A DNA stretch of 64,000 nt from Anaerolineales bacterium (GTDB lineage: Bacteria; Chloroflexota; Anaerolineae; Anaerolineales; Villigracilaceae), in assembly GCA_026928255.1 (NCBI GenBank), contig JAIXKJ010000003.1, positions 147,833 through 211,832 on the forward strand, written 5' to 3'. Made by a program: the position numbers and the translations under genes. Under the pieces are notes generated by a model. It saw only the letters and a list, made by a program, of their open reading frames with translations, ran no database searches and was not told the DNA's origin. Numbering within the stretch: the stretch's first letter is position 1; each line of letters begins with the position of its first letter. Of the stretch, positions 2,310-12,716 are shown one piece after another.

Positions 2310-3953
2310 TTATGCGGGAATCGAATGGTCGCTGATGCCTTGATTTTTTCGCGTCTGACGGATGTAATCGCGGACTAACTGTTGCGGGTGCGGCTGCGAT
2401 CCGCCCATGATGAGGTAGCCCGACGCCCAGAAATCGCCCGAAGGATTCTCGCGTTTCAAACGCGGGAAGTTGGCGAAAATCTTTTCCGACGTTTGCTGGC
2501 GCATGATTCGCATTAAGTAGCCGGGCGAGGTGTTCGGTTTGACGTTGACGACCCATTGCAAATAGTCGGGGCGGACGGCGAGAAATTCCAAGCGCCAACC
2601 GTAGGCGATGCAAACGTTCGGCAGCCATTCGCCGAGTTGATCGGCGAGGTCGCCTGTGAGGTAATGCGAGGCGAAGCGCGGAATCATCAAGCAGGCGTAG
2701 GTGAGGTGATATAAGCCGGCCGAAATGGGTTCGGGAGTTAGTTTCTTCGCCGCTTCGGTGGAAGGGCTTTCGCGGGTAACGCCGCCGCCGTCGGCGCGCG
2801 GACGAGGCAGGGGCGTTTCGGGGCGCGTCTTCGGTTTGGGGCGCGAAGGCGCGGTAACTTCAACGTCGTCGAGCGAAATTTGATCGGTAGGAAAGGCTTT
2901 CGATTCTTGAGTCTGCGCCAGCGAAGGCGGGGTCGCATCGAGGCTGAACGCCGACGCGCTAGAAAGCAAGTCGGAGACGCGAGTTTGATTCGGGTCGAAA
3001 GGCTCTCGTTGCGGCGGAAGCGCGAAGTCGCGCGAAGTCAGCGGTTCGGGGTTGGGGGCGGGGACGTCGGCGAGGATGTTTGAGATGGAAGGGATGTCGG
3101 AGTTGTCGTCTTCGTCTTCGTCTTCGTCTTCGTCTTCGTCGTAGGCGGCGGGCGCGGCGGCGCGAGGCGAGGCTTTTTCCGCGCCGAAGTTTTTTATCAA
3201 CTGCCCGGCTTGAGCGCGGATGGTGCTGAACGGCGTTTCCGCGTCGAAGACCAACGCCAGAGTCGAGTCGGACGAGAGGCGCGAGGCGTAGAGCATGTGT
3301 TCGGCTTTTGTGCTTTCTAAACGGACGAAGCGCAAAAGGTCCGAGCCTTTGTCGTCGTCCCAGTTGCGGACGACGGTTTGAGCCACCTCTTTGGCGGCGT
3401 TTTGCGAAAGTCCGCCTGCGTATGCCCAGAGGTCGTTTTTCTTCGTGATTAATGCCGCCTGCGCGGAAGATTCTAACGTCATGCTGGCGAGGCGTTGCGC
3501 GGATTTGTTCGGGTCGCCGAGCCAGGGCATCCATTGCGCGGTTTCGCTGAAATGAGAAACGGGAAGCGCCGCCGATTCCGCTTTTGGCGCGGGGGGCGGG
3601 GTTTGCGGCTGGCTGAGCGCGTTCATAAAATTGGAGAGTCGAAAGGGTTTATTAACCATAATCCAAGGCGATAAAGCGTGAATAGATGAAAGGTCGCTTG
3701 ACTCGTCGCAGAGGATGGCAAGGTTGATGTTGGGGCGCACCATTCGCAGCGCCAAGCCGATTTCTAACGCCCAGTCTTTGCCAAGCGAAAAGTCAAGCAA
3801 CGCCATCGGGATTCCGATTTCGTTCGCTTTGACGATTGCCGCAGCCTTGCTGTTGACGACCAACACTCGGTAAAAGTTGGTCTCTTCCAGCGCGCGGCGA
3901 ATGGTTTCGCCGAGGCTGACAGACGGGGTAACTACCAGTAAATCAGCGGGCAT
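2310..3953 (-). CDS. Multidomain protein: receiver-like + roadblock/LC7-like + acidic/Pro-rich linker + C-terminal IS200/IS605 TnpA(Y1)-like domain
   Basis: N-terminal LLVV...ALLDFSL...KPF receiver pattern. C-terminal YHLTYACLMIPRF...RPDYLQWVV...FWASGY...DYIRQ parallels TnpA YHIVW.PKYR...MPDHVHLL...FWS.GY...YIENQ. Confidence 0.75.
   Translation of the reverse strand: MPADLLVVTPSVSLGETIRRALEETNFYRVLVVNSKAAAIVKANEIGIPMALLDFSLGKDWALEIGLALRMVRPNINLAILCDESSDLSSIHALSPWIMVNKPFRLSNFMNALSQPQTPPPAPKAESAALPVSHFSETAQWMPWLGDPNKSAQRLASMTLESSAQAALITKKNDLWAYAGGLSQNAAKEVAQTVVRNWDDDKGSDLLRFVRLESTKAEHMLYASRLSSDSTLALVFDAETPFSTIRAQAGQLIKNFGAEKASPRAAAPAAYDEDEDEDEDEDDNSDIPSISNILADVPAPNPEPLTSRDFALPPQREPFDPNQTRVSDLLSSASAFSLDATPPSLAQTQESKAFPTDQISLDDVEVTAPSRPKPKTRPETPLPRPRADGGGVTRESPSTEAAKKLTPEPISAGLYHLTYACLMIPRFASHYLTGDLADQLGEWLPNVCIAYGWRLEFLAVRPDYLQWVVNVKPNTSPGYLMRIMRQQTSEKIFANFPRLKRENPSGDFWASGYLIMGGSQPHPQQLVRDYIRQTRKNQGISDHSIPA
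3106..3140 (-). repeat. (GAAGAC)n hexamer microsatellite encoding the DEDEDEDEDED tract
   Basis: About 6 tandem TCGTCT units on the + strand. Confidence 0.8.
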
Positions 3954-4045: not shown

Positions 4046-4618
4046 TCAGTCGAGTCCGCTTTCTAACGAGCGAAAGCCGAGCAGCGCCATCAGCGCTTCG
4101 GGCGGGAGGTCGGCGGCGGGCAATTCGACGTGATAGAGATTCTCGTTTTCGGCGCGTTCGCGCAGACTCTTCCAAAGCAGGTCGCGCTCTTCGCCTTCCA
4201 CGACCAGGTCGTTGAGCGTTTTTGCGTTGAGCAAATATTCGCCGGTCGAGTAGAGGAAGGTCAGGCGTTTCCATTTGTCGGTTTTGACCGACTCGCTCAG
4301 TTTTTCCAAACCGCCCAATTGGATTTTGAAATATTCTTCGCGGGCGCGCGGGTGATCGGCTTCGTCTTTGAGCAGTTCGCCGCGCGTGGTTAACTCATGT
4401 CCGCGCACGGCGGCGACGTACTCGATTTGTCCGCCCCTTTCTTTGAAGGAAGCGGGTTGATAAAACGCGAGATAATCCACGCTGATAATTTTGGGCGCGC
4501 GCCGCAACGGGATGCGATACCAGCCCAAGAGGCGCGCAATTTCCAAATCGCGCGGGTTGGGAATTAGGCAGACGAGGACTAAATCGGTAGGGCGCAACAT
4601 GAGGCGGAAGTCGGTCAT
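4046..4618 (-). CDS. Conserved hypothetical protein, PUA/EVE-like WYRIP domain (start may be ATG at 4600)
   Basis: VLVCLIPNPRDLEIARLLGWYRIP...YLAFYQP motif resembles the N-terminal domain I recall from Chloroflexi DUF559 nucleases. Confidence 0.55.
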   Translation of the reverse strand: MTDFRLMLRPTDLVLVCLIPNPRDLEIARLLGWYRIPLRRAPKIISVDYLAFYQPASFKERGGQIEYVAAVRGHELTTRGELLKDEADHPRAREEYFKIQLGGLEKLSESVKTDKWKRLTFLYSTGEYLLNAKTLNDLVVEGEERDLLWKSLRERAENENLYHVELPAADLPPEALMALLGFRSLESGLD

Positions 4619-7206: not shown

Positions 7207-7329
7207 ATGGCAGATTCCAACCGTCCCCTGAAAGTATTTTTATGCCACGCCTCGGCGGATAAGCCGCCCTACCAGGGCAGGATTGGGAATTGGAAATCTG
7301 CAAGGCGGTATAATAGCGGCAGCGTTTAG
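7207..7329 (+). pseudogene. Orphan 5' end of a TIR-domain gene (MADSNRPLKVFLCHASADK)
   Basis: Has a Shine-Dalgarno AGGAGG. 7222-7250 is identical (29 nt) to 7665-7693 of the downstream TIR gene; similarity is then lost. Confidence 0.75.
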
Positions 7330-7339
7330 GAGAACCGCC

Positions 7340-7537
7340 ATGAAATACAAAATCCGACTTGAAGAAACAGATGAAGGATTTGCCGTTTGGTGTCCTGGAT
7401 TGCCAGGATGTTGGTCGCAAGGGGACACAGAGGCAGAAGCATTGGAAAACATCAAGGATGCTATCAAGACCTATCTTGAAACGGTTGAAATTCTACTTAC
7501 AGATAAACAAACTCGAATGGTGGAGATACCAATCTAA
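7340..7537 (+). CDS. hicB: HicB family antitoxin
   Basis: FAVWCPGLPGCWSQGDTEAEALENIKDAIKTYL; AGGAG RBS before ATG at 7340. Confidence 0.9.
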   Translation: MKYKIRLEETDEGFAVWCPGLPGCWSQGDTEAEALENIKDAIKTYLETVEILLTDKQTRMVEIPI

Positions 7538-7539
7538 TC

Positions 7540-7647
7540 ATGCCCAAATTGGCGGGAATTCAACACCAGCGAGCCGTAAAAGCCTTTGAAGGCGGAATTA
7601 TCGAGGACGCGGGATTGACCATCGAAGAATTCAAGAAGTTGCTGTAA
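7540..7647 (+). pseudogene. hicA: HicA toxin with in-frame internal deletion (35 aa)
   Basis: MPKLAGIQHQRAVKAFE joins directly to GGIIEDAGLTIEEFKKLL, the HicA N- and C-termini, with no G(S/K)H catalytic core. Confidence 0.75.
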
Positions 7648-7649
7648 AT

Positions 7650-9497
7650 ATGCCTGTGGATAAACGTCCCCTGAAAGTATTTTTATGCCACGCGCACAGC
7701 GACAAAGACGCCGTGCGCGAGTTGTACGCGCGCTTGCGCGACGACGGCGTGGACGTTTGGCTGGATAAAGAGAACCTGTTGCCCGGTCAAAACTGGCGGG
7801 CTGAAATCCGCGCCGCCGTTGAAAAAGCGGACGCCGTTATTGTCTGTCATTCGCAGGAGTTCAATAAGGAGGGCTTTCGTCAAAGGGAAGTGAAATGGGC
7901 GTTGGACGCCGCGATGGAAAAACTCGAAGGCGAGATTTTTATCATCCCCGCTCGTTTGGAAGAGTGCGAGGTTATTAAAAGTTTAAGCGATTGGCATTGG
8001 GTGGACTTGTTCGATGAAAACGGCTATCGAATGCTCCTGCGCGCTTTGCAGGAGCGGGCAAATAATATTGGCGCGATCTTGCAAATCAAGAAAGGCTGGC
8101 TGCCGAGCGTGACTCTGCCGCGCAAAGAAAAACCGCCCGCTAAAAAGAAGCCTGAATCTGCTGATAACGGCGGCGTTGGCGTGGGCGGCGACGTTTCTGG
8201 CGCGGTGATTGTTACGGGCGACAATAATATCATCCACATGGGGCAGGCGGAAACGCCCGGTTCAAGCGTTGAAAAAGCGCGGTTGGAAGAAGAACGAAGA
8301 AAGCGTGCTGAAGAGCAGGCGGAGCGTGAGGCGACTGAAAAAGCCGCTCGCGAGAACGCTGAAAAAGAGGCTGCTGAACAAGTACGGCTACAAGCAGAGG
8401 AAGAAGAACGACGGCGAATTGAAAAGGAGAAAGTAGAGCGCGAAGCTGCTGAGAAGGCCGCTCGTGAAAAAGCGGAACGAGAAGCCGCCGATAGAATAGC
8501 TAGAGAAAAGGCGGAAAGAGAGGCTGCTGAAAAAAGCGCAAGAGAAAAAACAAAGAGTGAATCTGCCGAAAAAGCTAGGCAAGAGAAAAGGGAACGGCTT
8601 GAGACTCGAAGGGCTGCGCTAGCGAGGACTTCTTTTAAGTTTTTCACTACACTAAAGACAAACTTCACCCAAATAAAACCATTCCTGAGAATTGCTGGTC
8701 TCACCGGGACTGTCATTGTGCTTATATGGGGTAGTTCGTGGGCAATTCCAAAGTTTGTTTCACTCATACCGACTGCTAAGCCAAGTGCTACGATTACACG
8801 TACAGTTACTCCTATCCCATCTACAACGACACCTATCCCAACAACCACAAAAACTAAAGTACCTACTGTGACGCCTCGACCCTCAACCTTTTCCATCTAC
8901 GATAATTTTTCGTCTGGTTCGTCCAGTAAAAAATTTGATCCTGCATTGTGGATTGACTCCGGTGGCGAAGCAACAATAAATTGGCAAAGCGGATACCTTG
9001 TTTTCTCAGGAACTAATGGTGGACATGAACTGAGGCCCCGCATGCCCCAAGAGTGGCAAATTGGTCAGATTGGTAAACTGCAGGCTGATTTGAGAATTGA
9101 TGAAGTGAGCGGAGGATACGCGTTTTCGAAAATTGGAATAGATACCACACTGTCTGATGGAAAGGGAGTATGGTGGGTGCAATGTAGGGCTGGTTCGTTT
9201 GATGGAAAGAACGCTCAAGTAATTTGCGATTCTTATCGTGCAAAGGATACTATGGAACTCAAGTACCAGACTAATAGTTACTCTATTGAGTTTGGAAAGT
9301 TTTATACGGTTGCTATCGAAGTTGCCTCTGATGCCAGTTATGTTCGTTATTATGTCGACGGTGAGAAAATAGGTGGATTTCAGCCTGAAGAAAAAAATCT
9401 CTTGCTTAAGTCTAGTTTTGGTTGGAGTATCGGATTGTGGATGGATAGCGGGGTTACTGCTACAGGAGCAGTAGATAGTGTAATGATTGGTAAATAG
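7650..9497 (+). CDS. TIR_2 domain + coiled-coil repeats + transmembrane helix + Thr/Pro linker + extracytoplasmic beta-rich domain
   Basis: KVFLCHAHSDK...VWLDKENLLPGQNW...QREVKWAL...IIPARLEEC; EAAEKAARE repeats; IAGLTGTVIVLIWGSSWAI hydrophobic segment. Confidence 0.85.
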   Translation: MPVDKRPLKVFLCHAHSDKDAVRELYARLRDDGVDVWLDKENLLPGQNWRAEIRAAVEKADAVIVCHSQEFNKEGFRQREVKWALDAAMEKLEGEIFIIPARLEECEVIKSLSDWHWVDLFDENGYRMLLRALQERANNIGAILQIKKGWLPSVTLPRKEKPPAKKKPESADNGGVGVGGDVSGAVIVTGDNNIIHMGQAETPGSSVEKARLEEERRKRAEEQAEREATEKAARENAEKEAAEQVRLQAEEEERRRIEKEKVEREAAEKAAREKAEREAADRIAREKAEREAAEKSAREKTKSESAEKARQEKRERLETRRAALARTSFKFFTTLKTNFTQIKPFLRIAGLTGTVIVLIWGSSWAIPKFVSLIPTAKPSATITRTVTPIPSTTTPIPTTTKTKVPTVTPRPSTFSIYDNFSSGSSSKKFDPALWIDSGGEATINWQSGYLVFSGTNGGHELRPRMPQEWQIGQIGKLQADLRIDEVSGGYAFSKIGIDTTLSDGKGVWWVQCRAGSFDGKNAQVICDSYRAKDTMELKYQTNSYSIEFGKFYTVAIEVASDASYVRYYVDGEKIGGFQPEEKNLLLKSSFGWSIGLWMDSGVTATGAVDSVMIGK

Positions 9498-9643
9498 TTT
9501 CACGCCAAACAAGCTTTTCTAAAGGAGAGAACCAACATATTCTCCGCGTGAGGCTCATTTCAGACTGTGGATCATAGGCAATAGACCATCTACTGTCCAC
9601 GATCTATGGTCTTTCTATCAGTTATAATCCCCTCGCTCCACCA

Positions 9644-9689
9644 AACTGACAACTGGCAACTGAAAACTGACAACTGAAAACTGACAACT
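9644..9689 (+). repeat. Heptamer tandem array (AACTGAC/AACTGAA/AACTGGC) forming the glyQS leader
   Basis: 6.5 units between TATAAT (9623-9628) and ATG at 9690. Confidence 0.85.
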
Positions 9690-12600
9690 ATGTCCTCCTC
9701 CTTCCAATCCATCATCCTCACCCTGCAAGACTTCTGGTCCTCGCGCGGCTGCCTCATCACCCAACCCTACTACACCCAAGTCGGCGCGGGGACGATGAAC
9801 CCGAACACCTTCCTGCGCGTGCTGGGACCCGAAGCGTGGAATGTCGCCTACGTCGAGCCGTCCGTGCGCCCCGACGACGGACGCTACGGCGAAAATCCGA
9901 ATCGCTTCCAACTGCACACCCAATTTCAAGTCATCCTCAAACCCGACACGGGCAACCCGCAAGAGATGTATCTTGATTCGCTCAAAGCGCTCGGCATTGA
10001 CTCGCGCCAGCACGACATCCGCTTCGTCGAAGACAACTGGGAGCAGCCCGCCATCTCTGCCTGGGGGCTGGGCTGGGAGGTCTGGCTCGACGGGCAGGAG
10101 ATCACGCAGTTCACTTATTTTCAACAGATGGGCGGCGTAGCGCTCGACCCCGTCTCGGTTGAAATCACCTACGGCTTGGAGCGCATCCTCATCGCGCTTA
10201 ACAACGCCAAAGCCATCTGGGACGAACCCTACGGCGCAGACGTAACCTACGGCGAGATTCGCCGCCGCGAAGAATTTGAACATTCCAAATATTATTTTGA
10301 AACCGCCGACGTGGAACGCATCCGCGCCATGTACGACCTCTTCTCCGCCGAAGCCGAAGCCTGTCTCGCGCAGGGGCTGGTCTTGCCCGCGCACGATTAC
10401 GTTTTGAAATGCTCGCACATGTTCAACGTCCTCGACACGCGCGGCGCGATCTCCGTCGCCGAACGTCAGGCTTTCTTCCGCCGCATCCGCGAACTGGCGA
10501 AGGGCGTCGCAACCGCTTACGAAGCACAGCGCAAAGAGGCGGAGTATCCGCTTCTTAAGACGAAGGACAAAAGACCGAAGACTGCGACGGCGACTCCGTC
10601 CTCCGTCCTCCGTCCTCAGTCGTTCTTGTTGGAAATCGGTGTCGAAGAACTTCCCGCCTCGGATGTGGATTCGGCTCATGCGTATCTCGCAACCCGCATC
10701 CCGACTTTGCTCGACGAACTTTATCTTGACCATAAAGACATTCGCGTCTTTACAACCCCGCGCCGAATCGTCGTCTCGATTGACTCTCTCGCCCCGAATC
10801 AGCCCGACCGCGAAGACGTGGTCAAAGGTCCGCCCGCCAATAAAGCCTTCGATAAAGACGGAAAGATATTGCCTGCGGGCGCGGGCTTCGCCAAGAAAAA
10901 TAACGTCGAGCCAAAAGATTTGGAAGTCCGCGAGGACGCGCAAGCGGGCGGAAAATACGTCTTCGCCGTCGTCAAACAAAAAGGCAAGCCGACTCCCGAA
11001 GCGCTGACCGAAGCCTTGCCGAAATTAATCGAAAGCATTAAGTTTGAAAAATCCATGCGCTGGAACGAAAGCGGCGTCGCCTTCTCGCGTCCCATCCGCT
11101 GGCTGGTTGCTTTATTAGGCGATACTGTTATTCCATTTGAATATGCGGGCGTTGCGAGCGGAAATATTTCACGCGGACTGCGCCCCTACGGCTCGCCTGA
11201 AATCAAAATTTCTTCCGCCGAAAAATATTTCAACGCGATGCGCGAAGCGGGCGTGGTGTTGGATAAAGAAGAACGAAAGAAGTTAATCGTCGAGCAGATT
11301 GAACAATCCGCGATGTTGGTCGGCGGCGAAGCGCTGATTGAAAACGACCTGCTGAACGAAGTCGCCAACCTCGTCGAAATGCCGACGGCGGTGATGGGCG
11401 CGTTCAACGCAGAATTTTTATCGCTGCCGCGAGACGTGCTAATTTCGGTGATGAAGAAACACCAACGGTATTTTCCAGTTCAAGCGAGTTCCAAGTTTCA
11501 GGTTTCAAGTTCCAAGTCTGTCGAAGAACCTTCAACCTCCAACCTTCAACCTTTAACCTTTAACCTATCACCCCACTTCATCGCCATTCGCAACGGCGAC
11601 GACATCGGCGTGGATACTGTCCGCGCTGGCAACGAACACGTCCTCAACGCGCGTTTCGCCGACGCGAACTTCTTCGTCCGCGAAGATTTGAAATTGACGC
11701 TGGAAGAATATCGTCCCAAACTCGCGGCGCTGACCTTCCACACCAAACTCGGCTCCATGCTCGACAAGTCCAAGCGCATCGCCAAACTGGTTAACGAGTT
11801 GATCCCCGCCCTCGGCCTCGAAGCCGACCAAGCCATCTTTGCCCGCCGCGCCGCGCATTTAATGAAGGCCGACCTCGTCACGCAGATGGTCACCGAGATG
11901 ACATCGCTTCAAGGCATCATCGGTGGTGAATACGCCCTGCGCTCTGGCGAACAAGCAGATGTTGCCAAGGCCATCGGCGAGCAATATCAGGCTGTTCCTA
12001 AATCCAAAGCAGGACTTGTCATTGCCTTGGCGGATAGATTGGATTCGCTCGTCGGCCTCTTCGCGGCGGGACTCGCCCCGACGGGCGCGAAAGACCCCTT
12101 CGGTTTGCGCCGCGCCGCGATTGGCGTCGTGCAACCGCTCATCGAACACGCCGTTCAATTTAATCTGTCCGACGCGATTCAAAAATCTGCGGCGACGCAA
12201 CCGATTGAAGTCAGCGCCGAAACGCAAAATCAAATTTTGGATTTCATCGCGGGGCGCTTGTCCGTTGTGTTGAAAGACATGGGCTACAAACACGATCAAG
12301 TGGAAGCGATTCTGGCGGAACAATCGGGAAACCCTGCGGCGTGCGTTTGGTCGTTGAATCAACTGTCCGAGTGGACGAAGCGCGAAGATTGGCAACTCAT
12401 CCTCGCCGCGTTTGCGCGTTGCGCCCGCATCACCCGCGACCAAAAGCAAATCTTCCAAGTTGACGAAAAATTATTCGTCGAGAAAGAAGAAAAGGATTTA
12501 TTCGCGCAAGTGAAAATCATCAGCAGTCAGCCGTTTTCCGTGCAGGGATTTTTGAAAGTGATCGTCAAGTTGACTCCCGCCATTAATGCGTTCTTTGATA

Positions 12601-12716
12601 AAGTGATGGTCATGGCGGAAGATCAAAAACTCAGAGAAAACCGTTTGGGCTTGTTGCAAAAAATTGTCTCGCGCTCAAAAGGCGTCGCGGATTTTAGCAA
12701 GTTGGATGGGTTTTAA
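9690..12716 (+). CDS. glyQS: Glycine-tRNA ligase, fused alpha+beta subunits
   Basis: Alpha motifs [35 protein letters not shown]; beta motifs [36 protein letters not shown]. Confidence 0.97.
10556..10620 (+). repeat. Heptamer hairpin (AAGACNN / CTCCGTC) encoding the alpha-beta linker
   Basis: AAGACGA AGGACAA AAGACCG AAGACTG ... CTCCGTC x3 CTCAGTC. Confidence 0.7.
11489..11568 (+). repeat. Heptamer hairpin inserted in frame in the GlyS portion
   Basis: TTCCAAG TTTCAGG TTTCAAG TTCCAAG ... AACCTTC AACCTCC AACCTTC AACCTTT AACCTTT AACCTAT. Confidence 0.8.

What the first reader, a model, noticed from the sequence alone, without database searches (positions are those of the whole stretch)
7650..9497. 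Toll-receptor-like architecture: cytoplasmic TIR, coiled coil, one TM helix and a foreign-looking extracellular domain
Seen in sequence: TIR_2 with the catalytic Glu position kept (QREVKWA), ~100 aa of EAAEKAARE repeats, a TM helix, a Thr/Pro stalk and a beta-rich lectin-like domain. Codon usage turns A/T-rich after about 8500, suggesting a swapped ectodomain. Established: bacterial TIRs are NAD+ hydrolases or signal synthases activated by oligomerisation. Inference: a surface sensor for phage, epibionts or neighbouring cells that drives TIR activation across the membrane, with exchangeable specificity.
Basis: partly seen in the sequence, partly recalled or inferred. Interest (0 to 1): 0.72.

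Follow-up and report, generated by a model that had tools for sequence, protein, structure and literature searches.

The report
Mosaic membrane TIR receptor, lectin-fold ectodomain
An Anaerolineae-type bacterium encodes an intact single-pass membrane protein with a probably NAD-cleaving TIR domain inside the cell and a lectin-fold domain outside, built by joining a genus-typical TIR head to an imported tail at a recombination hot spot next to the glycyl-tRNA synthetase gene; it belongs to a large, uncharacterised family of receptor-like proteins with interchangeable heads and tails.

Summary
ORF 7650-9497 (+, 615 aa) has a TIR_2 domain with the catalytic Glu (E80), a disordered Gly-rich linker, a 136-residue ER/K helix (composition fits a single alpha-helix better than a coiled coil), one TM helix, a Thr/Pro stalk and a confidently modelled ConA-like jelly-roll ectodomain (nearest folds GH16/PL7/legume lectins; no GH16 catalytic motif).

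GC3 falls from 0.64 to 0.35 at codon 203 (nt ~8259, not ~8500). The atypical block is therefore the whole tail: ER/K helix, TM, stalk and ectodomain.

Comparative data support exchangeable modules:
- The best head matches (79-82% identity) carry FGE-sulfatase tails.
- The best tail matches (65-81%) carry Ser/Thr-kinase, AAA/TPR or ≤50%-identical TIR heads.
- No sampled same-genus genome has this ectodomain.
- 10 of 12 fetched same-genus loci have TIR genes or fragments upstream of glyQS, with FGE-sulfatase, PD40 or other tails.
- A degraded TIR 5' end plus hicB and a truncated hicA lie just upstream.

Function (ligand-driven clustering switching on a TIR NADase) is inferred, not tested. It is not a Toll-like receptor homologue (topology is inverted) and not a Thoeris system. 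The scan earlier found a TIR-TM-FGE sibling in another Anaerolineae genome. I class it as a new variant of a known kind.

The parts
7650..9497 (+). Complete gene for the 615-aa TIR / ER-K helix / TM / stalk / ConA-like ectodomain protein (P0001)
   Evidence: ORF list and translation. Full-length AF2 model, mean pLDDT 77.5, with three ordered parts and two disordered linkers.
7650..8069 (+). Cytoplasmic TIR domain (aa 1-140; Pfam match aa 10-129). Host-like codon usage, GC3 0.62.
   Evidence: PF13676 at E 1.9e-27, 96.6 bits. PDB sequence hits to bacterial TIR NADases: 7uxr, 3h16 (PdTIR), 7uwg/8g83 (AbTir), 4c7m/4lqc (BtpA/TcpB). pLDDT ~90. GC3.
7887..7889 (+). Codon of Glu80, the predicted catalytic glutamate ('GFRQRE80V')
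   Evidence: E80 aligns with the Glu of the W-x-x-x-E motif of AbTir, PdTIR and BtpA. E80, G75, Q78 and A84 are kept in 119 of 119 homologues. The Trp of the motif is Phe or Tyr in this subfamily.
8070..8264 (+). Disordered linker (aa 141-205) with the Gly-rich motif GGDVSGAVIVTGDNN. It is the last host-like segment, GC3 0.65.
   Evidence: pLDDT below 50 for aa 152-204. Weak matches to the linker follow TIR in same-genus syntenic genes, and one lies in an own-genome FGE-sulfatase protein.
8265..8672 (+). ER/K-rich long helix (aa 206-341) with 13-aa (39-nt) repeats. The low-GC3 tail block starts here.
   Evidence: 39-nt direct repeats. Single helix 206-341. 60% charged, 47 opposite-charge i/i+4 pairs, heptad hydrophobic occupancy at most 0.15. 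GC3 change point at nt 8259.
8682..8759 (+). Single transmembrane helix (aa ~345-370)
   Evidence: It is the only Kyte-Doolittle segment at or above 1.6 in the protein. Helix 345-370 in the model. 104 of 120 homologues have exactly one such segment after the TIR.
8766..8918 (+). Thr/Pro-rich stalk (aa ~373-423), predicted extended and disordered, on the extracytoplasmic side
   Evidence: Sequence. pLDDT below 50. Conserved as a T/P-rich spacer in tail homologues, including the kinase-headed P0008 and AAA/TPR-headed P0121.
8919..9494 (+). ConA-like beta-jelly-roll ectodomain (aa ~424-615) with two near-invariant Cys (C512, C526)
   Evidence: AF2 pLDDT 93.5, pTM 0.90. Foldseek finds GH16 glucanases, PL7 lyases and a legume lectin, TM 0.55-0.67 at 10-18% identity. 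Laminin_G_3 is sub-threshold. 239 representative proteins carry the domain, nearly always at the C-terminus.
7208..7310 (+). Relic of a TIR gene 5' end with its own GGAGG ribosome-binding site. Codons 1-19 lie at 7208-7265; codons ~44-57 lie in another frame at 7269-7310.
   Evidence: tblastn of the TIR head on the own genome. Sequence reading. 32-nt direct repeat 7219-7250 / 7662-7693, 97%. 90% nt identity of the second piece to TIR genes of G010 and L004.
7340..7537 (+). hicB-like antitoxin gene (66 aa from the ATG at 7340), GC3 0.35
   Evidence: PF15919 HicB_lk_antitox, 37.5 bits against a cut-off of 27. An 80%-identical copy sits in the syntenic locus of G019.
7541..7648 (+). Truncated hicA-like ORF (35 aa). 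It ends one base before the TIR start codon.
   Evidence: Sequence. It is read as HicA with an internal deletion by recall of HicA N- and C-terminal motifs. That reading was not tested against a profile.
9690..12716 (+). Fused glycyl-tRNA synthetase gene (glyQS). It is the conserved right-hand anchor of the variable TIR-receptor locus.
   Evidence: ORF. 82-87% identical in most same-genus matches (74% in G004), with TIR genes or fragments immediately upstream in 10 of 12 fetched loci.

Best explanation
The gene encodes a type II (N-in, C-out) single-pass receptor-like protein.

Shown:
- An intact TIR_2 head with the catalytic Glu.
- A disordered linker.
- A ~136-residue ER/K helix that acts as a long spacer.
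- One TM helix.
- A Thr/Pro stalk.
- A ConA-like lectin-fold ectodomain that lacks the GH16 catalytic motif.
- The gene is a mosaic. The head plus linker are of the type common in its own genus, where the usual tail is FGE-sulfatase. The whole tail from codon ~203 has atypical codon usage, has no close homologue in sampled genus genomes, and is shared with Ser/Thr-kinase and AAA/TPR heads in other, lower-GC lineages.
- The locus upstream of glyQS is a genus-wide hot spot where TIR receptors with different tails, split versions and 5' TIR relics accumulate.

Inferred:
- The ectodomain binds an extracellular, probably glycan-bearing and multivalent ligand. Candidates are phage or foreign-cell surfaces, or matrix polysaccharide.
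- Ligand-driven clustering brings the tethered TIR heads together.
- As in other TIR enzymes, which need self-association, clustering switches on NAD+ cleavage. The outcome would be NAD+ depletion or a nucleotide signal, leading to growth arrest or death of the affected cell of the filament.
For: Architecture.

Catalytic Glu: aligned to AbTir, PdTIR and BtpA and 100% conserved, together with G46, W49, G75, Q78 and A84, in 119 homologues. This indicates purifying selection on an enzyme-like site.

Topology:
- There is no N-terminal signal-like hydrophobic segment, and only one hydrophobic segment in the protein.
- The same tail follows ATP-dependent kinase heads, which must be cytoplasmic.
- The ectodomain has a conserved Cys pair and a T/P stalk.
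- One post-TIR hydrophobic segment is the family rule, in 104 of 120 homologues.

Exchangeability:
- Homologous heads carry FGE-sulfatase, WD40, PD40, DUF1080, LysM and SH3 tails.
- Head and tail identities disagree.
- No same-genus genome holds the ectodomain at more than 29% identity, while all 24 hold the head, with 2-17 matches each.
- Syntenic orthologues upstream of glyQS have other tails.
- GC3 has a change point at codon 203.

The idea that lectin-fold domains fused to TIR or kinase effectors act as invader sensors in multicellular bacteria is published (PMC8195603 section 7; PMC10907252).
Against:
- The hydrophobic segment is only moderately hydrophobic (1.66-1.72). The positive-inside count is not decisive: 5 versus 3 K/R.
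- The motif Trp before the catalytic Glu is Phe here and in the subfamily; the effect on activity is unknown.
- The neighbours are housekeeping genes (PLP enzyme, nitroreductase, glyQS, dnaG). No partner effector is nearby, and no SIR2_2 gene is found in the genome. An immune role therefore has no contextual support.
- The low GC3 of the tail is also seen in the kinase homologue P0008: head 0.585, tail 0.23-0.36. Part of the signal may therefore be a property of the tail module rather than a mark of recent import.
- The gene sits in a decaying locus with a relic TIR start and a truncated hicA. The 2.7-Mb genome has only two TIR genes. It could be on the way out.
Confidence: 0.55

Rival explanations
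1. Signal-generating TIR. Clustering makes the TIR produce a cADPR-type messenger, as in Thoeris ThsB, and a separate effector encoded elsewhere reads it. NAD+ is not simply depleted.
For: PADLOC and NCBIfam place the head near ThsB-like and other defence TIRs at domain level. Many new Thoeris types with diverse effectors are known (bioRxiv 10.64898/2025.12.03.692087).
Against: No effector gene is adjacent. No SIR2_2 was found in the 99%-complete genome. Other effector families were not searched. Syntenic loci of relatives show no conserved partner gene.
Confidence: 0.15
2. Scaffold TIR. The head is a non-enzymatic homotypic interaction module that recruits the genome's only other TIR protein (TIR-TPR, contig C8) or other partners. 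This would be TLR-MyD88-style outside-in signalling for ordinary environmental sensing, parallel to the Ser/Thr-kinase receptors that share the same tails.
For: The same tails sit on Ser/Thr kinases, which are regular signalling heads. The genome has exactly one other TIR gene, with TPR repeats. The genomic context is housekeeping.
Against: The catalytic Glu and surrounding residues are invariant in 119 homologues. That is not expected for a pure scaffold. From general knowledge, every bacterial TIR studied so far with this Glu cleaves NAD+.
Confidence: 0.12
3. Surface lectin or adhesin, or a decaying mosaic. The ectodomain is the functional part (binding matrix or cell-wall glycans in the filament sheath). 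The TIR head is a leftover of cassette shuffling with no regulated activity, or the gene is a recent recombinant heading for loss.
For: The locus is littered with relics: a TIR 5' fragment, a truncated hicA, and split TIR | TM-tail genes in relatives. The genome is reduced, with 2 TIR genes against 2-17 matches in relatives. No Shine-Dalgarno sequence is obvious before the ATG at 7650.
Against: The 615-codon frame is intact and all family-invariant TIR residues are kept. Six or more metagenomic proteins share the full TIR-plus-same-tail architecture, so the combination is maintained in nature.
Confidence: 0.1
4. The ectodomain is an active GH16- or PL7-like polysaccharide-cleaving enzyme anchored to the membrane, not a sensor.
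For: The top structural neighbours are GH16 glucanases and PL7 alginate lyases.
Against: Sequence identity is 10-18%. No ExDxxE/ExDxE motif is present. The conserved strand reads Q-A-D-L-R-I-D, and the following Glu is not conserved in the family. No GH16 or PL7 Pfam match appears, only sub-threshold Laminin_G_3.
Confidence: 0.05

Closest known systems
Effector-plus-lectin-fold sensor proteins of conflict systems in multicellular bacteria (NPCBM- or FGS/FGE-sulfatase-domain proteins fused to TIR, Ser/Thr kinase or caspase; Kaur, Iyer, Burroughs & Aravind, eLife 2021, PMC8195603; DGR-diversified CLec sensors, PNAS 2024, PMC10907252)
   Same: An N-terminal effector (TIR, interchangeable with a kinase) and a C-terminal lectin-fold ligand-binding domain. 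The syntax is strict: the sensor is always C-terminal. The family is abundant and paralogous in a filamentous lineage. The proposed role is a direct sensor of foreign molecules.
   Different: The lectin fold here is ConA-like, not C-type lectin or discoidin. Head and sensor are on opposite sides of the membrane. No NTPase, effector-associated domain or DGR is linked to this gene. No experimental support exists for either.
Animal Toll-like / IL-1 receptors
   Same: Single-pass membrane protein with an extracellular ligand-binding domain and a cytoplasmic TIR. Signalling logic by ligand-induced TIR apposition.
   Different: Topology is inverted: TIR is N-terminal (type II), against C-terminal (type I) in the animal receptors. 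There are no LRR or Ig domains. The TIR keeps the catalytic Glu typical of enzymatic TIRs, whereas TLR TIRs are scaffolds. There is no evidence of common ancestry of the whole architecture.
Bacterial TIR NADases AbTir, PdTIR, BtpA/TcpB (PDB 7uwg/8g83, 3h16, 4c7m/4lqc) and Thoeris ThsB
   Same: TIR fold with an aligned catalytic Glu. These are the best PDB sequence matches (E 2e-6 to 7e-4).
   Different: Those are soluble proteins. Some are secreted effectors or parts of two-gene systems. None has a TM helix or an ectodomain. The motif Trp is Phe here.
Bacterial receptor Ser/Thr kinases with extracellular sensor domains (PknB/PASTA type; the Anaerolineae/Planctomycetota STK-TM-FGE/WD40 expansions, e.g. 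PMC11032199)
   Same: Identical tail modules. P0008, P0122 and P0132 carry the same ER/K helix, TM, stalk and ConA-like domain at 57-65% identity behind a kinase. Same type II topology.
   Different: The output domain is TIR (NAD+ chemistry) instead of a protein kinase.
TIR-TM-FGE receptor noted earlier by this scan in another Anaerolineae genome (e1-4616624)
   Same: Same family of heads and same topology. FGE-sulfatase is also the usual tail at the syntenic locus in this genus.
   Different: The tail here is a rare ConA-like domain imported as a block with the ER/K helix and TM. The mosaic junction and the hot-spot locus are documented here.

Membership tests
TIR_2 (PF13676) / enzymatic bacterial TIR domains | Profile match above the curated cut-off | tested here: met
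   96.6 bits against a cut-off of 28, aa 10-129.
TIR_2 (PF13676) / enzymatic bacterial TIR domains | Catalytic glutamate in the W-x-x-x-E position | tested here: met
   E80 aligns with that Glu of AbTir, PdTIR and BtpA. It is conserved in 119 of 119 homologues. The Trp is replaced by Phe or Tyr.
TIR_2 (PF13676) / enzymatic bacterial TIR domains | NAD+ cleavage activity dependent on self-association | not testable with these tools
   Needs an in vitro NADase assay with an E80A control.
Toll-like / IL-1 receptor family | Type I topology: N-terminal LRR or Ig ectodomain, TM helix, C-terminal TIR | tested here: not met
   TIR is N-terminal and the ectodomain is C-terminal and ConA-like.
Thoeris (ThsB TIR plus ThsA-type effector) | Adjacent effector gene that reads the TIR product | tested here: not met
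   The neighbours are the hicB/hicA remnant, nitroreductase, a PLP enzyme, glyQS and dnaG. No SIR2_2 is found in the genome. Syntenic loci have no conserved partner.
Glycoside hydrolase family 16 | Beta-jelly-roll fold | tested here: met
   Foldseek probability 1.00, TM 0.55-0.67 to GH16 structures.
Glycoside hydrolase family 16 | Catalytic ExDxxE / ExDxE motif | tested here: not met
   No such motif is in the sequence. The conserved strand is QADLRID, with a non-conserved residue after it.
ConA-like lectin/glucanase superfamily (Laminin_G_3, PF13385) | Profile match above the cut-off | tested here: inconclusive
   17.1 bits against a cut-off of 27.6. Relatives of the domain reach 21-29 bits. 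The fold agrees.
Effector plus lectin-fold sensor proteins of multicellular-bacterial conflict systems (Kaur et al. 2021) | N-terminal effector (TIR or kinase) fused to a C-terminal lectin-fold domain, with displacement of heads among homologues | tested here: met
   TIR, Pkinase and AAA/TPR heads occur on the same tail. Comparison with PMC8195603 section 7.
Effector plus lectin-fold sensor proteins of multicellular-bacterial conflict systems (Kaur et al. 2021) | Association with a STAND/other NTPase, effector-associated domains or a DGR | tested here: not met
   None is in this protein or its neighbours. Only the distant tail homologue P0121 has an AAA/TPR head. A DGR was not searched for genome-wide.
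HicAB toxin-antitoxin module (upstream genes) | Intact HicA toxin next to HicB | tested here: not met
   HicB matches PF15919. The hicA-like ORF has only 35 codons. In G019 only the first 17 residues match.
Canonical coiled coil | Hydrophobic residues at heptad a/d positions | tested here: not met
   Best register gives 15% LIVMFYW at a/d. The segment is 60% E/K/R/D, with 47 i/i+4 opposite-charge pairs in 120 residues. This fits an ER/K single alpha-helix.

The most novel reading that the evidence does not exclude
This family could be a true bacterial cell-surface pattern-recognition system. In that reading, single-pass receptors sense extracellular ligands (phage particles, foreign cells or kin glycans) before anything enters the cell. 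They transmit the event across the membrane by clustering an NAD+-cleaving TIR held on a rigid ER/K spacer. Specificity would be renewed by cassette exchange of whole tail modules at a fixed chromosomal hot spot beside glyQS, with the same tails serving kinase and STAND heads. That would make it a functional analogue of Toll-like receptors that arose independently in filamentous bacteria.
Probability: 0.3. Interest if true: 0.85.

Novelty: new variant of a known kind. Interest (0 to 1): 0.58.

Why it matters
Known bacterial TIR systems sense infection inside the cell. A TIR enzyme wired to an extracellular lectin-fold sensor would be outside-in immune or kin-recognition signalling in bacteria, the logic of animal Toll-like receptors reached independently.

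The family is large: hundreds of proteins in Anaerolineales metagenomes, and 2-17 matches to the head per genome in this genus. It is completely uncharacterised.

This locus gives an unusually clear natural experiment. One conserved chromosomal site carries orthologous heads with different tails, a datable mosaic junction and recombination scars. Head and tail modularity, and the mechanism of cassette exchange, can therefore be studied directly.

The gene also offers simple tests: NADase with E80A, forced clustering, and glycan binding.

Tried and rejected
- GH16/PL7 enzyme reading of the ectodomain: the fold matches, but no catalytic motif is present.
- Classical coiled coil: rejected on composition and heptad analysis.
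- Defence-island or Thoeris reading: PADLOC and NCBIfam hits are TIR-domain-level only. The neighbours are housekeeping genes, and there is no SIR2_2 in the genome.
- Paralogue survey in the own genome: only one other TIR gene (TIR-TPR) and no second copy of the ectodomain. The survey therefore had to use relatives and metagenomes.
- Simple 'recent import' reading of the low GC3: weakened because the kinase homologue shows the same high-head, low-tail pattern. It is kept only in combination with the absence of the tail from the genus and the head/tail identity conflict.
- Synteny of P0121 with glyQ: what lies downstream of P0121 is only a ~220-nt glyQS 5' fragment, 75% identical, not a full gene.
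- Literature: five full-text searches found no description of a TIR-TM-ectodomain receptor family in Chloroflexota. The library lacks many subscription papers.
Full report
**What is there**

The + strand ORF 7650-9497 encodes 615 residues without interruption. The parts are as follows.

- TIR head. Pfam TIR_2 matches aa 10-129 at E 1.9e-27, 96.6 bits against a cut-off of 28. The best solved relatives by sequence are bacterial TIR NAD+ hydrolases: 7uxr, PdTIR 3h16, AbTir 7uwg/8g83 and BtpA/TcpB 4c7m/4lqc.
- Catalytic site. In those alignments the query's 'EGFRQRE80V' lies on their 'kk.W...E' motif, so Glu80 takes the position of the Glu of that motif. I recall that Glu to be the catalytic one in those enzymes. 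The Trp is Phe here.
- Conservation. In an alignment of 119 close homologues, E80, G46, W49, G75, Q78 and A84 are invariant. Position 76 is Phe or Tyr throughout.
- Full-length model (41-row alignment, mean pLDDT 77.5):
  - a well-ordered TIR (aa 1-140, pLDDT ~90);
  - a disordered Gly-rich linker (152-204);
  - one uninterrupted helix, 206-341;
  - a second helix, 345-370;
  - a disordered Thr/Pro stretch (373-423);
  - a beta sandwich (430-615).
- Membrane segment. The second helix coincides with the only hydrophobic segment of the protein, Kyte-Doolittle 1.66-1.72 over 19 residues.
- Charged helix. It is built of 13-residue (39-nt) repeats. It is 60% E/K/R/D, 22% Ala and 7.5% hydrophobic, has 47 opposite-charge i/i+4 pairs, and has at most 15% hydrophobic residues at heptad a/d positions in any register. 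I therefore read it as an ER/K single alpha-helix, a stiff spacer, rather than a coiled coil.

**The ectodomain**

Modelled alone with 16 homologues, it reaches pLDDT 93.5 and pTM 0.90.

- Foldseek places it in the ConA-like jelly-roll class. The neighbours are GH16 glucanases, PL7 alginate lyases and a legume lectin, TM 0.55-0.67 at 10-18% identity.
- Pfam gives only a sub-threshold Laminin_G_3 hit.
- The GH16 ExDxxE motif is absent. The conserved strand reads QADLRID, and the following residue varies.
- Two Cys (C512, C526) are invariant or nearly so, and they are the only Cys outside the TIR. This fits an extracytoplasmic disulfide; that is an inference.
- A search of 1.84 billion representatives finds 239 proteins with this domain, almost always at the C-terminus. 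It follows Ser/Thr kinase, TPR, WD40 or PKD regions.

**Topology**

Four points favour N-in, C-out:
- There is no N-terminal hydrophobic signal, and the 340-residue N-terminal part is highly charged.
- There is a single hydrophobic segment.
- The same tail is attached to protein kinase heads, which must be cytoplasmic (P0008, P0122, P0132, each with one TM between head and tail).
- The C-terminal part has a T/P stalk and a Cys pair.

Of 120 top homologues, 104 have exactly one hydrophobic segment after the TIR. The positive-inside count alone is not decisive.

**The compositional break**

- GC3 is 0.62-0.65 in the TIR and linker, and 0.28-0.40 from the ER/K helix to the stop.
- The maximum-likelihood change point is codon 203 (nt 8259), 0.635 against 0.35, Fisher p 2e-11.
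- The genome median GC3 of long ORFs is 0.68, and ~3% of 200-codon windows are at or below 0.40.
The odd block is the whole tail module.
- Caveat: the kinase-headed homologue P0008 shows the same pattern, head 0.585 and tail 0.23-0.36, in a 46%-GC contig.

**Mosaic origin**

- The heads most like this one (P0010, P0024 and P0021, 79-82%) carry FGE-sulfatase tails.
- The tails most like this one have TIR heads at most 50% identical, or kinase or AAA/TPR heads. These are P0128 (81%), P0121 (71%), P0003 (69%), and P0122 and P0008 (62-65%).
- Among 24 same-genus and 16 same-order species genomes, none has the ectodomain above 29% identity.
- All 24 same-genus genomes have the head, with 2-17 matches each and a best identity of 64-68%. 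Same-order genomes outside the genus have almost none.
- Contigs carrying the tail have 42-47% GC against 54% for this genome.

**The locus**

GlyQS, directly downstream, is 82-87% identical in most same-genus matches (74% in G004). In 10 of 12 fetched loci, TIR genes or fragments lie immediately upstream of it. Their tails differ:
- TIR-TM-FGE-sulfatase in G008, G020 and G007.
- A TIR ORF followed by a separate TM-FGE ORF in G003 and G024.
- A TIR ORF followed by a TM-PD40 ORF in G010.
- A short unknown tail in G019.
- A C-terminal TM anchor only in G009.

The locus also carries scars.
- In the window, 7208-7265 encodes 'MADSNRPLKVFLCHASADKP' behind a GGAGG site. 7269-7310 encodes 'LPGQDWELEICKAV' in another frame. 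Together they are a gutted TIR 5' end.
- Then follow hicB (PF15919), a 35-codon hicA remnant, and the intact gene.
- A 32-nt direct repeat (7219-7250 / 7662-7693, 31 of 32) brackets the insert.
- hicB, 80% identical, also sits in the G019 locus.
- Short 5' TIR fragments (aa ~1-59, 55-79% identity) are scattered through the genus genomes.
- A 104-aa TIR fragment directly precedes a kinase-FGE gene in L004.
- Fragments of the glyQS 5' end occur upstream of the real gene in G001 and G020, and downstream of P0121 in an unrelated contig, where 220 nt are 75% identical.

I infer repeated homologous or homology-facilitated recombination, anchored on the conserved TIR 5' box and on glyQS. This inference is not proven.

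**How it probably works (inference)**

A surface lectin-fold domain on a wall-spanning stalk binds a multivalent, probably glycan-bearing ligand. Lateral clustering brings together TIR heads that hang ~20 nm below the membrane on ER/K helices with flexible linkers. From established knowledge of SARM1, AbTir and plant TIRs, TIR enzymes need self-association to form the active site. NAD+ is then cleaved, and the cell arrests or dies.

Rival readings are a messenger-producing TIR with an unlinked effector, a scaffold TIR that recruits the genome's single TIR-TPR protein, an adhesin with a vestigial head, and an enzymatic ectodomain.

No defence context supports an immune role. The neighbours are a PLP enzyme, nitroreductase, glyQS and dnaG. 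PADLOC and NCBIfam hits are at TIR-domain level only. No SIR2_2 gene is found. The genome also holds 8 Pkinase and 6 FGE-sulfatase genes, so the receptor tool-kit is present.

**Comparison with the known**

- The nearest published concept is the effector-plus-lectin-fold sensor of conflict systems in multicellular bacteria (PMC8195603 section 7; PMC7159879; DGR-diversified CLec sensors with TIR, Pkinase and TM, PMC10907252).
- Those works stress cytoplasmic, NTPase-linked proteins with FGS or NPCBM domains. A single-gene TIR-in / lectin-out family in Anaerolineae was not found in five full-text searches, in a TIR survey, or in the Thoeris survey preprint.
- It resembles Toll-like receptors in logic only, because the topology is inverted.
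- This scan earlier described a TIR-TM-FGE sibling in another Anaerolineae genome (e1-4616624). The present case adds a rare ConA-like tail, the mosaic junction and the glyQS hot spot.

**Verdict**

I class it as a new variant of a known kind and score interest at 0.58.

The lineage assignment (Anaerolineales, Chloroflexota) rests on the names that sources give to homologues, not on a marker-gene analysis.

Noticed in passing
window 7208-7648: A gutted TIR 5' end with its own RBS is followed by hicB and a 35-codon hicA remnant. The insert is bracketed by a 32-nt direct repeat (7219-7250 / 7662-7693). The hicA stop lies one base before the TIR ATG, which suggests co-transcription and translational coupling.
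   Followed up: partly
L028 (G010), L031 (G003), L037 (G024), oriented coordinates: In three same-genus genomes the syntenic receptor is split into a TIR-only ORF (165-207 aa) and a following ORF that starts with the TM helix and carries FGE-sulfatase or PD40. These are either two-gene versions or fresh frameshifts.
   Followed up: partly
L035 6462-6627 (G001), L030 oriented 4416-4598 (G020), L005 7992-8211: Extra fragments of the glyQS 5' end lie beside receptor genes. One lies next to P0121, on a contig that holds no full-length glyQS. This suggests that glyQS serves as a recombination anchor and travels with tail cassettes.
   Followed up: partly
same-genus genomes, list (e.g. G010:C23:183140-183340 and 184263-184403; G011:C166:6047-6235): Many isolated fragments cover only the first ~30-60 codons of this TIR subfamily, at 55-79% identity. 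The conserved 'RPLKVFLCHA' start may be a recombination box.
   Followed up: no
L039 3771-4775 (G022), L029 945-1901 (G008), L034 oriented 702-1814 (G019); own genome C5:114667-114765: The Gly-rich linker motif (like GGDVSGAVIVTGDNN of aa 173-190) recurs at the N-terminus of TM proteins without a TIR in the same locus of relatives. It also recurs in an 892-aa FGE-sulfatase protein of the own genome. Its function is unknown.
   Followed up: no
L028 1736-2122, L033 121-453, L034 oriented 3521-3907, L036 oriented 540-926: A conserved 110-128-aa ORF ('MRYLTVGEVLEIYSQVM...') sits in the receptor locus of four relatives. From memory it looks like a Doc/Fic-type toxin; this was not tested. A conserved 5-TM 183-aa ORF ('M(D/N)INQIVTLD...') is also present in the G008, G009 and G019 loci.
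   Followed up: no
window 9643-9684: A tandem 21-nt repeat (AAACTGACAACTGGCAACTGA, two copies, 90%) made of heptamer-like units lies in the spacer just upstream of glyQS.
   Followed up: no
L003 (contig of P0008) and L004 (contig of P0126): Receptor genes come in arrays in other Anaerolineales contigs. L003 has seven kinase genes with FGE-sulfatase, WD40 or PD40 tails plus a transposase within 18 kb. L004 has a TIR fragment, a kinase-FGE gene, a TIR-ConA-like gene and another TIR gene within 6 kb.
   Followed up: no
own genome C8:388113-389378 (L001 1492-2757): The only other TIR gene of the genome encodes a soluble TIR-TPR protein (421 aa) that also keeps the W-x-x-x-E motif ('SEWVKRE'). It could be a partner or an independent sensor.
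   Followed up: no
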